From Candidatus Pacearchaeota archaeon (GTDB lineage Archaea > Nanobdellota > Nanobdellia > Pacearchaeales > GW2011-AR1), in the NCBI GenBank assembly GCA_002688415.1, contig NZCX01000030.1:1782-65781 (forward strand): DNA of 64,000 bases. The letters are read 5' to 3'. Of the stretch, positions 46,480 to 49,347 are shown one piece after another. The translations under genes were made by a program, and so were the position numbers. Positions within the stretch are counted from its first letter, which is position 1. Each line of letters starts with the position of its first letter. The notes under the pieces were generated by a model. It saw nothing but the letters and a program-made list of their open reading frames with translations. It ran no database searches and was not told the DNA's origin.

Positions 46480-49347
46480 ATGAGTACCCATATCAAAAAG
46501 TTGGTGATGCACGGCTTCAAGTCTTTTGCAAGAAAAACAGAGATCCCATTTGAAGATTCTATGAACGTAATTGTTGGGCCAAACGGATCGGGAAAATCTA
46601 ACATTACCGACGCTCTTTGCTTCGTTTTAGGAAGAATAAGCATTAAATCAATCAGAGCGGCAAAGGCAGCAAACCTACTTTTCTCTGGAAACAAAACCTA
46701 CAAAGGAGCCCAAGAAGCCTCTGTAGAATTAATCTTTGACAACAAAGGAAAATCATTCACATTGGACACGCCAGAGGTATCAATAAAAAGAATTGTAAGG
46801 AAAAACGGTTCTTCAGTATACAAAATCAACAATGAAACCAAAACAAGGCAAGAATTATTAGAGCTTTTAGCTCAAGCGGGAATAGATCCCCATGGTTTTA
46901 ACATTGTTCTACAGGGAGAGATCCAATCCTTAGTTAAAGCAACAGCGGAGGAAAGAAGAAGAGTTCTAGAAGATGTAGCAGGGATCTCAATTTATGAAAC
47001 CAGAAAACACAAAGCACTAAGAGAGCTAGAAAAAACAGATGAAAAACTAAAGGAAGTGGCAGCTGTTCTAAGAGAAAGGAATTCTTACATGAAAAACCTA
47101 GAAAAAGAAAAACAGGAAGCATTATTATTCCAAAAACTAGATGAAACAATAAAGAGATCTAGGAAAACAATCTTAGCCTTAGGAAAAGCCGATAAAGAGA
47201 AAGACTTATGGGGAATAGACAAACTAATAGAAGAGGCCAACGTAGAAGTTAACAAGCTAAAAGATGAAATATCTAAGAAGAAAATAGGAGTAGAAGAACT
47301 AGAGGCGAAAATCAATAGTATAAATAAGAAAATCCAGGACTCAACGAGCAACGAAAAAGAGGACCTACATAACGAAATCAGTGAATTAAGAGCAGAATTA
47401 GCAGGCTTAGAGGTTAGAAAAGAAAACTTTGAACGAAGAGTAGATCAAAACAAACACAAAAATCTTGAGTTGGGTAAAAAACAAGGAGAACTAGAAGAAG
47501 AAATAAGTAAAATTCAAACAAAAACACCCGAGATAAAAGAAACCCAAAAGACTCAAAAAGATTTACAAGAAAAGTTCGATAAGTTAGAAGAAAGAAAAAG
47601 AAAATTCTACTTAATAAAATCAGAAATAGCACAATTAGAAAGCGTTAGAGAACAAGCAAACAAATTCTTAATTGAAAGCAAGAAAGAAATAGCTCTTATT
47701 GAAAGAAATGTAGAAACTCTCTTTAATGAAATCAAATTCGCCAAATCTCTTGATGCAGCTCAGAGGCTAAAGGCTGAAACAAAAGAGCAAGTTGGAAAAT
47801 TAAGAAGAGAAATGGAACATTTAGAAAGAGTCTCCTTAGAAAAAGAGCGAAGAAATGCTGTTCTTGAAGATGAAATCAAGCGAGAAGAGTCTTTGGTTGG
47901 ATCTATTTTAGATTTAAAGAATTGCCCTACTTGTAAACAAGTTGTTGGAGAAGATTATAAACAAACTATTCAAGGCGATTCGGGTGGGAAGATAAAGAAA
48001 GCTAAGAAAGAAAAAGAAGAAAACGAATCTATTAAGAACAAAACGAATGCAAGAATTGAAAACATCACACAAGAGCTTTTCCAATTGAATGAAACCTTAT
48101 CTGAAGTTGAAATTGATTCTATGAAAGTTAAGAATGCTGAAGAAAAGAAGATCCAGATTAAGAAAATAAGTGAAGAGCAGGCAGTATCAAGAGAAAACCT
48201 TACAAGTATAAACGCTAAACTTTCCAAATTGAACCAAGAATTTGAAGGCCTGAAAGGAATTGAAGAAGAATATGATGAAGTAAGAGTAAGAATACAAGAA
48301 CTTTCCTTTAAGGATCTTGATATAGATTCTGAAATTGGCTTAAAGCAAAAAGAGATTAATCGTTTGAACATTGAAAAGAAATCCTTAGTTAGAGATAGTG
48401 AAGAATCTCAAATTGAATTGAAGAAGGTTGTTGTCTTAATAGAAGAAAAGAAAGGAACACTTGAGAGAAAAGAGAAAAAAGAAGCTGAATTATATGAGAA
48501 GTTTGAGAAATTCTTTGATGAAAAAACAGAGTTAGGGGATAAACAGAAAGCTTTAGAGACAGACGTCATTGGTTTTGAGCACAACTTAAGGAGCTATGAA
48601 GAGAAAATAAATGAGAATAAGATAAAGAAGGCGCAGTTAAACGCACATATAGAATCTATTGAAGCTGAAATGAGAGTTTATTCTGATGTTGAAGTTTACA
48701 AGCTGAATGAATCGGAGGTTAAAGAAAGATTACAAAAAGCAGAGTTTAGGAAGTCGAGATTAGGAAGTGTTAATATGAGAGCAGTTGAGGTTTTTGACAA
48801 AGTTCAGGAACAAGTTCGATTGATCAAAGAAAAAGTTGAAGTTATTGAAGGCGAGAAAGAGAAGATTGAGAAGATCATTGCAGAAATTGATAAGAAGAAA
48901 AAGAAAGCTTTTATGACGACTTTAGAAGCTGTAAATACATATTTCACTCGTAACTTTTCACAATTATCTAGAAAAGGACAAATTAGTTTAGAACTTGAAG
49001 ATAAAAAAAATCCTTTTGAAGGAGGGTTGAATATTTTGGTTAGAGTTAATAGAGGAAAGTATTTCGACATCACAAGTTTAAGCGGAGGAGAAAAGACAAT
49101 GGTTGCACTATCTCTGATCTTCGCTATCCAAGAATACAAACCTTATTGTTTCTATATCTTCGATGAAATCGACGCTGCTCTGGACAAACACAATTCTGAA
49201 TTGTTGGCTGCCTTGATTAAGAAATACATGAAGACAGGACAATACATAATAGTTACACACAACGATACTTTGATTTCTGAGGCTAGTAATCTGTATGGGG
49301 TTTCAATGCAAGAGAATATTTCCAAGATTATTAGCTTGAAGGTGTAG
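46480..49347 (+). CDS. smc: SMC-type chromosome segregation ATPase, hinge-less, with central CxxC
   Basis: N-head MHGFKSF...[21 protein letters not shown]..RA....LLFSG. C-head [36 protein letters not shown]...YIIVTHN. About 630 aa of uninterrupted coiled-coil-like sequence in between. 955 aa total. Confidence 0.9.
   Translation: [955 protein letters not shown]
49264..49347 (+). repeat. Direct repeat copy 1: functional smc 3' end (last 27 codons plus stop)
   Basis: 74 of 84 nt identical to 52829-52912. The first 26 nt are identical. Confidence 0.95.

What the first reader, a model, noticed from the sequence alone, without database searches (positions are those of the whole stretch)
47923..47934. 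SMC with canonical heads but no hinge: a Rad50-style CPxC pair sits exactly at the coiled-coil midpoint
The protein is 955 aa, whereas the prokaryotic SMCs I recall are about 1150-1200 aa. The heads are SMC-type, not Rad50-type. Evidence for this is FKSF, [19 protein letters not shown], LLFSG, and [36 protein letters not shown]. Between about residues 170 and 800 the sequence is continuous K/E/L/I-rich heptad-like coil. It contains no globular, Gly-rich hinge segment. The only cysteines in that 630-aa stretch are C482 and C485, in [17 protein letters not shown]. That is 50.5 percent of the protein length, where an antiparallel coiled coil must reverse. The local motif mirrors the Rad50 zinc hook (CPVC in Pyrococcus). 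A kleisin gene (scpA, 33039-33953) is present in the window, so the protein presumably still works as an SMC-ScpA complex. The inference is dimerisation through a Zn hook in place of the hinge, a hybrid SMC/Rad50 architecture that I have not seen described.
Basis: partly seen in the sequence, partly recalled or inferred. Interest (0 to 1): 0.85.

Follow-up and report, generated by a model that had tools for sequence, protein, structure and literature searches.

The report
SMC with a Rad50-type zinc hook
In a large group of tiny DPANN archaea (Pacearchaeota), the chromosome-organising SMC protein has lost its universal "hinge" and carries a Rad50-style zinc hook in its place, a natural version of a chimera so far known only from engineering.

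Summary

**The protein.** ORF 46480-49347 (+) encodes a 955-aa protein. Its ATPase heads are SMC-type. Its two ~310-aa helical arms are unbroken by any SMC hinge. CPTC (C482/C485, nt 47923-47934) sits at the predicted turn.

**Not an artefact.** The same ~950-aa architecture occurs in thousands of Pacearchaeota-type sequences. All 80 species-level genome loci examined carry it.

**The hook is Rad50-type.**
- The family motif is CP-x-C-K-x-x-[IV]-T-x-E-H.
- Pfam Rad50_zn_hook hits 45 of 55 apex fragments.
- Apex profiles find only the Pyrococcus Rad50 hook in the PDB at E<0.001.
- The AlphaFold apex model best matches Rad50 hook structures.

**Origin.** About 43 residues replace about 227 residues (the hinge) of the nearest hinge-bearing SMCs. 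The hook forms make one clade in a distance tree of non-apex regions (200/200 bootstraps).

**Partner.** ScpA is in the window and conserved across the lineage.

**Not shown.** Zn-mediated dimerisation and SMC-ScpA function are inferred. Absence of a second SMC or of Rad50 could not be tested.

**Unexpected.** A nested ~800-aa sub-group has lost the hook too.

**Literature.** No description was found in the searchable papers. An engineered B. subtilis Smc-zinc-hook chimera (2017) is the closest precedent.

The parts
46480..49347 (+). smc gene, 955 aa plus stop: SMC-type heads, two long arms, zinc hook at the apex, no hinge
   Evidence: ORF. Pfam SMC_N 178 bits, no SMC_hinge. TIGR02169 511 bits, below the 729 cut-off. 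PDB Pyrococcus Smc head E 5e-97.
46480..46983 (+). N-terminal half of the ATPase head (residues 1-168) with Walker A GPNGSGKS
   Evidence: Aligns to Pyrococcus Smc head residues 3-182. AlphaFold strands and helices run up to residue 168. Motif positions.
46984..47910 (+). Ascending coiled-coil arm (residues 169-477, ~309 aa)
   Evidence: AlphaFold helices 169-285, 294-307, 311-342, 356-417 and 424-477. Colinear with residues 2-464 of the hinge-bearing SMC P0148.
47911..47949 (+). Zinc-hook apex (residues 478-490, [13 protein letters not shown]). The hook motif itself continues to K494, inside the helix that starts at residue 491
   Evidence: Non-helical turn with a beta-bridge between residues 481 and 488 in both AlphaFold models. 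Profile hits to the Pf Rad50 hook entries 6zff and 1l8d. Foldseek top hits are 1l8d and 6zff.
47923..47934 (+). CPTC: C482 and C485, the inferred Zn ligands
   Evidence: Sequence. Invariant in alignments A1, A2 and A3. Present in 80/80 species loci.
47950..48888 (+). Descending coiled-coil arm (residues 491-803, ~313 aa)
   Evidence: AlphaFold helices from 491-589 through 768-829. Residues 502-955 are colinear with residues 692-1166 of P0148.
48889..49344 (+). C-terminal half of the ATPase head (residues 804-955) with signature LSGGEK and Walker B [12 protein letters not shown]
   Evidence: Aligns to the Pyrococcus Smc C-terminal head fragment 3kta_B over residues 804-954. Motif at residue 867.
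33039..33953 (+). scpA, the kleisin and presumed partner, 13 kb upstream
   Evidence: PF02616 at 40.2 bits against a 24.6 cut-off. 2643 homologs; all 120 listed carry PF02616. Contig lengths are shared with hook-SMC entries.
44630..45328 (+). rnhB (RNase HII), the conserved upstream neighbour of smc in this clade
   Evidence: PF01351 at 127 bits. Present within the 10 kb flank of smc in 65 of 80 related loci, upstream on the same strand in all but four. Also upstream of the hookless 804-aa ortholog.

Best explanation
This is the chromosomal SMC ortholog of a Pacearchaeota-type DPANN archaeon. The ancestral hinge domain, about 225 residues, has been replaced by a Rad50-type zinc hook of about 40 residues.

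**Shown here**
- The heads are SMC-type.
- The arms are colinear with those of hinge-bearing SMCs.
- A conserved CP-x-C motif sits at the predicted coiled-coil turn.
- That motif matches the Rad50 hook in both sequence and predicted fold.
- The hook forms share a single evolutionary origin.

**Inferred**
- Two protomers each give C482 and C485 to one tetrahedral Zn2+ ion, as in Pyrococcus Rad50 (1L8D). This joins the two ~310-residue arms at their tips.
- The ATPase heads engage on ATP, and ScpA bridges them.
- The complex therefore works as an ordinary Smc-ScpA DNA-entrapping and loop-extruding ring whose dimerisation module has been swapped.
- Any hinge-specific role, such as DNA binding or acting as a gate, is dispensable or is taken over by the Lys-rich hook flank (CK-x-K).
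For: **Heads.** The PDB best hit is Pyrococcus Smc at E 5e-97, against Rad50 at ~1e-13. TIGR02169 and TIGR02168 score ~500 bits, against ~105 bits for Rad50 and ASRP models. The full AlphaFold model matches condensin Smc4 and the Pyrococcus Smc head plus joint.

**No hinge.**

**Hook.**
- C482 and C485 are invariant and P483 is >=90% conserved.
- The motif is present in 120/120 closest homologs and 80/80 species loci.
- It is also present in all ~950-aa cluster representatives down to 37% identity.
- Pfam PF04423 Rad50_zn_hook hits 45 of 55 apex fragments, best E 4.6e-8.
- Apex profiles against 177,635 PDB sequences rank only the Pf Rad50 hook entries 6zff and 1l8d at E<0.001 (8e-5 to 7e-4). 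T and H at +5 and +8 after the second Cys align.
- The apex AlphaFold model (pLDDT 89) is helix, hook, helix. Its Foldseek ranks 1 and 2 are 1l8d. It aligns to 6zff at TM 0.76-0.81 and rmsd ~3 A.

**Swap.** Query residues 3-458 and 502-955 align to residues 2-464 and 692-1166 of a 1166-aa hinge SMC.

**Single origin.** Hook forms, together with the hookless derivatives, make one bipartition in 200/200 NJ bootstraps on 685 non-apex columns. The clade is sister to 1130-1190-aa hinge SMCs.

**Partner.** scpA is in the window. It is conserved at 61-100% identity across the lineage and shares contigs with hook SMCs.

**Feasibility.** An engineered B. subtilis Smc carrying the Pf Rad50 hook supports normal growth (PMC5344682).
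Against: - No experimental or multimer-model evidence for Zn binding or dimerisation. Only monomers could be predicted.
- The window's own hook is diverged (Y493 in place of His) and alone does not hit PF04423.
- Foldseek E-values for the apex are weak (0.014-0.26), as for any helical hairpin.
- About 800-aa orthologs nested in the clade lack the hook altogether. Hook-mediated dimerisation is therefore not obligatory in this lineage.
- No ScpB was found among 30 window ORFs scanned.
- I could not scan whole genomes, so a second, hinge-bearing SMC or a Rad50-Mre11 in the same cells is not excluded.
- The tree is a distance tree, not maximum likelihood, and its polarity rests on the universality of the hinge elsewhere.
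Confidence: 0.8

Rival explanations
1. The CPxC is not an intermolecular Zn site. It would instead be a turn-stabilising or redox motif, or part of an intramolecular site that uses the nearby His. Dimerisation would then occur only through the heads or along the arms.
For: Hookless ~800-aa orthologs exist, so the lineage can do without the motif. Only monomer models were available. A His at +8 is >=90% conserved in the wider family.
Against: Only two Cys lie near the apex, so one chain cannot supply four ligands. The +8 His is Tyr in the window's sub-clade and Glu in P0136, so it is not an obligate ligand. The motif and its flanks match the Rad50 hook, whose solved structure uses four Cys from two chains (1L8D, established knowledge).
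Confidence: 0.1
2. It is an accessory SMC-like paralog, comparable to ASRP/ClsN, Rad50-like or defence ATPases. It would co-exist with a canonical hinge SMC and have a different job.
For: Whole genomes could not be scanned. Other hook-bearing SMC-related families exist: ASRP/ClsN (PMC9389158) and LmuB (PMC10586767). The score is below the TIGR02169 cut-off.
Against: - Heads are about 45-50% identical to Pyrococcus Smc and far from the ASRP model (105 bits against a 300 cut-off) and the Rad50 models.
- The low TIGR02169 score is explained by the missing hinge.
- The arms are colinear with those of the hinge-bearing SMCs in the sister clade of the distance tree.
- ScpA is conserved alongside.
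- No second SMC-like ORF lies within 10 kb in 80 loci.
- Among the proteins whose source names were looked up, the nearest hinge-bearing relative is labelled Woesearchaeota rather than Pacearchaeota.
Confidence: 0.07
3. It is a misannotated Rad50/SbcC that works with Mre11 in DNA-end processing.
For: It has a central CxxC hook and a Rad50-like length of ~950 aa. Rad50 NCBIfam models give weak hits.
Against: SMC head similarity exceeds Rad50 similarity by about 80 orders of magnitude in E-value. There is no Mre11-like or other SMC-like neighbour; the conserved neighbour is rnhB. The arms align with SMC arms. Foldseek ranks SMC proteins first.
Confidence: 0.02
4. Assembly or gene-calling artefact: a hinge-encoding segment was collapsed or deleted.
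For: None beyond the short length.
Against: The same 946-957-aa architecture appears in thousands of independently assembled contigs from NCBI, JGI, ENA, Logan and Tara and in 80/80 species representatives. The Tara protein P0001 is 100% identical over 99% of the query.
Confidence: 0.01

Closest known systems
Prokaryotic Smc-ScpAB (archaeal SMC, TIGR02169; Pyrococcus Smc structures 5XEI, 5XNS, 4I99)
   Same: ATPase head sequence and motifs, arm length and colinearity, a ScpA kleisin encoded in the genome, and database annotation as 'chromosome segregation protein SMC'.
   Different: No hinge domain (PF06470). A CP-x-C hook sits at the apex. Total length is ~955 aa rather than ~1150-1190 aa. 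The score is below the TIGR02169 trusted cut-off. ScpB not found in the window.
Rad50/SbcC zinc hook (PF04423; Pyrococcus furiosus 1L8D, 6ZFF)
   Same: A CP-x-C at the tip of an antiparallel coiled coil, with shared flanking pattern (hydrophobic at +4, T at +5, H at +8). Significant profile matches and best structural matches.
   Different: The heads are SMC-type, not Rad50-type. The presumed partner is a kleisin rather than the Mre11 nuclease. The window's own copy is a diverged variant (CKQ...Y).
Engineered B. subtilis Smc(Zh) chimera (Burmann et al. 2017, PMC5344682). The reciprocal Rad50-MukB-hinge chimera is in Tatebe et al. 2020, PMC6969161
   Same: Exactly this architecture: SMC heads and arms with a Rad50 zinc hook replacing the hinge. 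It was shown to support normal growth.
   Different: That chimera is man-made and uses a foreign Pyrococcus hook. The protein here is natural, ancient and fixed across a whole archaeal lineage.
Archaea-specific SMC-related proteins (ASRP: ClsN/coalescin, Sph1/2; PMC9389158)
   Same: An archaeal coiled-coil ABC ATPase with a zinc-hook motif at the apex.
   Different: ASRPs are shorter (the model is 593 positions) and their heads are only distantly SMC-like. The NF045487 model gives 105 bits against a 300 cut-off here. No kleisin partnership is known for them.
Hinge-less SMC of marine Actinobacteria (Sussfeld et al. 2025, PMC12153180)
   Same: A natural SMC-clade protein that has lost the hinge.
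   Different: Those are bacterial and explicitly lack a CXXC motif. They resemble the hookless ~800-aa Pacearchaeota forms noticed here, not the hook form.
Lamassu LmuB (PMC10586767)
   Same: An SMC-like ATPase that often has a CPxCG hook.
   Different: It is ~650 aa with short arms, Rad50-related, and part of a defence system with a nuclease effector. It is not a chromosomal SMC.

Membership tests
Canonical prokaryotic SMC (Smc-ScpAB) | SMC-type ABC ATPase head (Walker A, signature LSGG, Walker B and D-loop) split between the N and C termini | tested here: met
   GPNGSGKS at 33, LSGGEK at 867, [12 protein letters not shown]. PF02463 at 178 bits. Pyrococcus Smc heads at E 5e-97.
Canonical prokaryotic SMC (Smc-ScpAB) | Long intramolecular antiparallel coiled-coil arm of about 300-350 residues per strand | tested here: met
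   AlphaFold helices span 169-477 and 491-829. The apex hairpin model has pLDDT 89. Colinear with the arms of a hinge SMC.
Canonical prokaryotic SMC (Smc-ScpAB) | Central hinge dimerisation domain (PF06470) | tested here: not met
   No PF06470 at E<=1. No globular middle domain in the model. The same scan finds PF06470 in relatives P0147, P0155, P0180 and P0204.
Canonical prokaryotic SMC (Smc-ScpAB) | Curated whole-protein score (TIGR02169/TIGR02168 cut-offs) | tested here: not met
   511 bits against 729, and 499 bits against 567. The shortfall is consistent with the missing hinge columns.
Canonical prokaryotic SMC (Smc-ScpAB) | Kleisin partner ScpA encoded in the genome | tested here: met
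   PF02616 at 33039-33953. Conserved across the lineage and on shared contigs. Physical interaction was not tested.
Canonical prokaryotic SMC (Smc-ScpAB) | KITE partner ScpB | tested here: inconclusive
   No PF04079 among 30 window ORFs scanned. Only 64 kb of the genome is visible.
Rad50/SbcC | CxxC zinc hook at the coiled-coil apex (PF04423) | tested here: met
   Met at family level: 45 of 55 apex fragments hit PF04423 at E<=0.01, best E 4.6e-8. PDB profile hits to 1l8d and 6zff. Foldseek top hits. The window's own fragment alone gives no PF04423 hit.
Rad50/SbcC | Rad50-type head and curated Rad50 model score | tested here: not met
   Rad50 NCBIfam models score 64-105 bits against cut-offs of 700-1087. 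PDB Rad50 heads score E ~1e-13 against SMC at 5e-97.
Rad50/SbcC | Mre11/SbcD nuclease partner, usually adjacent | tested here: inconclusive
   The neighbours are rnhB and an ABC transporter. None of the 30 window ORFs scanned is a nuclease partner. The whole genome was not available.
Rad50/SbcC | Zn2+ coordinated by four Cys from two chains | not testable with these tools
   Only monomer prediction without ligands was available. Inferred by homology to 1L8D.
ASRP (ClsN/Sph) | Curated ASRP model NF045487 | tested here: not met
   105.6 bits against a 300 cut-off, matching only residues 18-327.

The most novel reading that the evidence does not exclude
Pacearchaeota hold a natural evolutionary series of one orthologous SMC. 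In this reading the hinge (the state in related, Woesearchaeota-labelled lineages) was replaced once by a Rad50-derived zinc hook. In a nested sub-group the hook was then lost altogether, leaving ~800-aa SMCs with shortened arms and no recognisable dimerisation module. If all three forms are functional Smc-ScpA motors, the identity, and possibly even the presence, of an apex dimerisation domain is dispensable for SMC function in nature. Hinge-centred models of DNA entry and DNA binding could then not be general.
Probability: 0.35. Interest if true: 0.85.

Novelty: new variant of a known kind. Interest (0 to 1): 0.7.

Why it matters
Textbook and review definitions separate the two families by exactly this feature. 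SMC proteins have a hinge and a kleisin partner. Rad50 proteins have a zinc hook and the Mre11 nuclease (PMC10586767).

A whole archaeal lineage, at least 143 species-level genomes, crosses that line. It shows that evolution performed the domain swap which Burmann et al. made by hand in B. subtilis.

Consequences for the field:
- The SMC hinge fold is not required for chromosome maintenance in nature.
- Models in which the hinge is a DNA gate or an essential DNA-binding site are constrained.
- There is now a compact natural SMC (hook or hookless) for structural and single-molecule work.
- It is evidence for module exchange between Rad50 and SMC.
- Hinge-based searches and curated SMC models miss or under-score these proteins.

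Tried and rejected
1. **Literature.** Six full-text searches combined SMC, hinge, zinc hook, DPANN, Pacearchaeota and 'hinge-less'. None describes a natural SMC with a hook. The only 'hinge-less SMC' paper concerns Actinobacteria without CXXC.
2. **Second SMC/Rad50.** I looked for a second SMC- or Rad50-like gene, scpA and the upstream orphan ORF in the 10 kb flanks of 80 related loci. None was found. Only rnhB is syntenic.
3. **ScpB.** Pfam scans of 30 window ORFs found no ScpB.
4. **Synteny to hinge forms.** I tried to extend orthology by synteny to the hinge-bearing relatives P0147 and P0148. They lie in unrelated contexts, so synteny is uninformative there.
5. **Window hook alone.** The window's own apex fragment against Pfam gives no Rad50_zn_hook hit, only weak zinc-finger noise. 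The assignment rests on family profiles.
6. **Rad50 status from papers.** The one comparative DPANN genomics paper checked (PMC8407392) gives only a general statement that repair genes are widely lacking.
7. **Dimer model.** A dimer or Zn-bound structure prediction was not possible with the tools, which predict monomers only.
8. **Rejected readings.** Assembly artefact, Rad50 misannotation and ASRP membership were considered and rejected (see rival explanations and the membership test).
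Full report
**Observation.**
- The window holds an ORF at 46480-49347 (+) of 955 aa. 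Nucleotides 47923-47934 read tgc cct act tgt, which is C482-P-T-C485.
- The protein has four cysteines in total (47, 482, 485, 890). Between residues 170 and 800 it has two prolines, P350 and P483.
- That stretch is 18% Glu, 16% Lys, 10% Leu and 8% Ile.
- Random placement of four Cys gives a CxxC in the central tenth of the protein in 0.14% of trials.

**What kind of protein.**
- Pfam finds SMC_N spanning residues 4-946 and no SMC_hinge even at E<=1.
- NCBIfam's two SMC equivalog models score ~500 bits, below their cut-offs of 729 and 567. Rad50 and ASRP models reach only ~105 bits against cut-offs of 300-1087.
- Against PDB sequences the best matches are Pyrococcus Smc heads (5xei, E 5e-97), aligned over residues 4-237 and 711-954. 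Rad50 heads come at E ~1e-13.
- An AlphaFold2 model of the full protein (61-sequence alignment, mean pLDDT 71.7) has heads at both ends and helices from 169 to 829 with short breaks. There is no globular domain in the middle. A non-helical turn lies at 478-490, with a beta-bridge between residues 481 and 488.
- Foldseek of that model against the PDB ranks condensin Smc4 and the Pyrococcus Smc head plus joint first.
- The heads and arms are therefore SMC, and the hinge is truly absent.

**Not an artefact, and a large family.**
- A search of 5.8 billion proteins gives 7200 hits at E<=1e-10. The best 120 share 59-100% identity. They are 946-956 aa long, apart from one intein-bearing copy.
- They come from NCBI, JGI, ENA, Logan and Tara assemblies. 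Where named, they are called 'chromosome segregation protein SMC' of Pacearchaeota, Nanoarchaeota or 'archaeon'.
- All 120 have C-[P/F]-x-C in the middle.
- A scan of one genome per GTDB species found 143 loci. All of the best 80 encode a ~950-aa protein with CP-x-C at residue 472-493.
- The window's ScpA is 100% identical to a protein of a 'Candidatus Pacearchaeota archaeon' MAG.
- In an exhaustive HMMER search of 1.84 billion cluster representatives, every ~950-aa representative down to 37% identity carries the motif. The next tier, at ~36% identity, is 1130-1190 aa with a Pfam SMC_hinge and no CxxC. One of these (P0148) is labelled Woesearchaeota.

**The motif is a Rad50-type zinc hook.**
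- Across species the consensus is [IV]-S-K-[ML]-D-[IV]-C-P-[LIV]-C-K-S-K-I-T-x-E-H-[IV]. Pyrococcus furiosus Rad50 reads K-C-P-V-C-G-R-E-L-T-D-E-H-R.
- A profile of residues 420-550 from 25 family members was searched against 177,635 PDB sequences. It finds the two Pf Rad50 hook entries first (6zff at E 8e-5, 1l8d at 1.3e-4) and nothing else below 0.08.
- A second profile, from 55 species, gives the same two top hits (2.8e-4 and 7e-4).
- Pfam's Rad50_zn_hook (PF04423) matches 45 of those 55 fragments individually at E<=0.01, best 4.6e-8. It is also precomputed on two database members.
- An AlphaFold2 model of the apex fragment (pLDDT 89.3) is helix 5-58, hook 59-71, helix 72-130.
- Among 350,542 PDB chains its first two Foldseek matches are the Rad50 hook 1l8d. 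It superposes on the Pf Rad50 rod 6zff with TM 0.76-0.81 and rmsd ~3 A. The E-values are weak (0.014-0.26), as expected for a helical hairpin.
- The window's own copy belongs to a sub-clade with a diverged flank, CP[TIV]CKQxVxxx[HY]K. On its own it does not hit PF04423.

**A clean swap with a single origin.**
- Against the 1166-aa hinge SMC P0148, query residues 3-458 align to 2-464 and query residues 502-955 align to 692-1166. About 43 residues therefore stand where about 227 residues (the hinge and its junctions) stand in the relative. A second relative gives the same picture.
- The arms are 309 and 313 residues, symmetric about the hook.
- Family length is tightly conserved, mostly 952-954 aa.
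- A neighbour-joining tree was built on 685 head and proximal-arm columns, with the apex excluded. It puts all hook forms in one clade next to hinge-bearing SMCs.
- The bipartition of hook forms plus two hookless derivatives is recovered in 200/200 bootstraps.
- The hinge is universal in bacterial, archaeal and eukaryotic SMCs. The parsimonious reading is therefore one hinge-to-hook replacement in an ancestor of this lineage.
- The sequence-level match to Rad50 hooks suggests acquisition from a Rad50 gene rather than convergence. The donor was not identified.

**Context and partners.**
- scpA (PF02616) lies 13 kb upstream.
- Its 2643 database homologs include 120 at 61-100% identity, all carrying PF02616. 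Two of them share contig lengths with hook-SMC entries (147,334 and 369,652 bp).
- RNase HII (PF01351) lies within the 10 kb flank of smc in 65 of 80 related loci, upstream on the same strand in all but four.
- No second SMC- or Rad50-like ORF lies within 10 kb of smc in any of the 80 loci.
- No ScpB was detected among 30 window ORFs.
- Whole genomes could not be scanned. Co-existence with a hinge SMC or with Rad50-Mre11 therefore remains untested.

**Mechanism proposed.**
- By homology with 1L8D, two protomers each contribute C482 and C485 to a single tetrahedral Zn2+ ion, joining the arm tips constitutively.
- The heads engage on ATP and ScpA closes the ring.
- The heads, arms, hook homology and kleisin presence are shown here. 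Zn binding, dimerisation and DNA-motor function are inferred.
- Feasibility is supported by experiment. Replacing the B. subtilis Smc hinge with the Pf Rad50 hook gave a protein that 'supported normal growth' and kept the same arm-length constraints (PMC5344682). A Rad50 with a MukB hinge is functional in fission yeast (PMC6969161).

**An unexpected complication.**
- Among the closest relatives is a set of ~780-810-aa proteins, at least 26 clusters. They have SMC heads, no hinge, no CxxC, few or no Cys near the middle, and a poorly conserved apex.
- They align to the query except for residues ~380-521.
- In the one genome examined (P0271, GCA_002780285.1, labelled Pacearchaeota) the gene lies downstream of rnhB, as in the hook forms.
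- Two of them, P0140 and P0141, were included in the tree and nest inside the hook clade. Hook-only monophyly is recovered in 0/200 bootstraps.
- They appear to be orthologs that lost the hook and part of the arms.
However, it is loss of the whole module, not decay of the Cys in an otherwise intact apex. In every protein with the ~950-aa architecture both Cys are kept.

**Comparison with what is known.**
- A 2023 review defines SMC proteins by hinge plus kleisin and Rad50 by zinc hook plus Mre11 (PMC10586767).
- Hook-bearing SMC-related families are known: Rad50/SbcC, ASRP/ClsN (PMC9389158) and LmuB. All have non-SMC heads.
- A hinge-less SMC clade was reported from marine Actinobacteria and explicitly lacks CXXC (PMC12153180).
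- I found no paper describing a natural SMC with a zinc hook. The library does not cover all journals.
- Bürmann et al.'s SMC sequence survey was seeded with hinge alignments. That may be why such proteins were not noticed.

**Verdict.** This is a new natural variant of a known machine. It is broadly distributed in one DPANN lineage, has a directly relevant engineered precedent, and has an intriguing hookless offshoot.

Noticed in passing
Related proteins P0140, P0141, P0144, P0146, P0271 and P0290-P0372 (subset); locus L081 6001-8415: About 800-aa Pacearchaeota SMC orthologs with neither hinge nor CxxC hook and shorter arms (query residues ~380-521 missing). P0140 and P0141 nest inside the hook clade, and the one genome examined (L081) shows the same rnhB-upstream synteny. 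The apex is poorly conserved, and how they dimerise is unexplained.
   Followed up: partly
Related proteins P0117 (1486 aa), P0127 (1479 aa), P0130 (1483 aa), P0305 (1335 aa): Some hook SMCs, and one apparently hookless one, carry an insertion of ~530 aa shortly after the N terminus (query residue ~22-39 resumes at ~546-570). In P0117 and P0305 the insertion has intein-splicing and LAGLIDADG Pfam domains (PF14890, PF14528).
   Followed up: no
window 45329-46479: A 1.15 kb insert lies between rnhB and smc; in most relatives the two genes are adjacent, a few tens to a few hundred nt apart. It holds two orphan ORFs (45881-46438 +, 185 aa; 45329-45844 -, 171 aa, Cys-rich). Neither has a Pfam hit or a homolog in the 80 related loci. 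GC rises to 0.43 at 45400-45700, against 0.30-0.40 in the flanking regions.
   Followed up: partly
window 8690-12232 and 7828-8688: A 1180-aa ORF with no Pfam family lies directly downstream of a CbbQ/NorQ-type AAA+ ATPase (PF07728 and PF08406). Such ATPases usually pair with a large VWA-type partner.
   Followed up: no
window 30289-30843; also L081 3384-3950: A free-standing ~185-aa ORF with weak LAGLIDADG_3 similarity lies in the window next to tRNA genes. A similar LAGLIDADG ORF lies near rnhB in the related locus L081.
   Followed up: no
L073 (JAHYJW010000001.1); P0054; P0424: Hook-SMC and ScpA copies occur in records labelled 'Patescibacteria group bacterium' and 'Methanococcoides sp. SA1', on contigs of 182-569 kb. 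These are probably mislabelled or contaminating Pacearchaeota contigs.
   Followed up: no
Related proteins P0155 (943 aa), P0180 (963 aa), P0204 (961 aa); P0207-P0269 (~810-850 aa): Other short SMCs in the representative search keep a normal hinge but have much shorter arms. Examples are 943-963 aa with PF06470 at ~410-530, and ~810-850-aa forms with a hinge-like GRxxFLPL middle. SMC arm length therefore varies in discrete classes among these uncultured lineages.
   Followed up: partly
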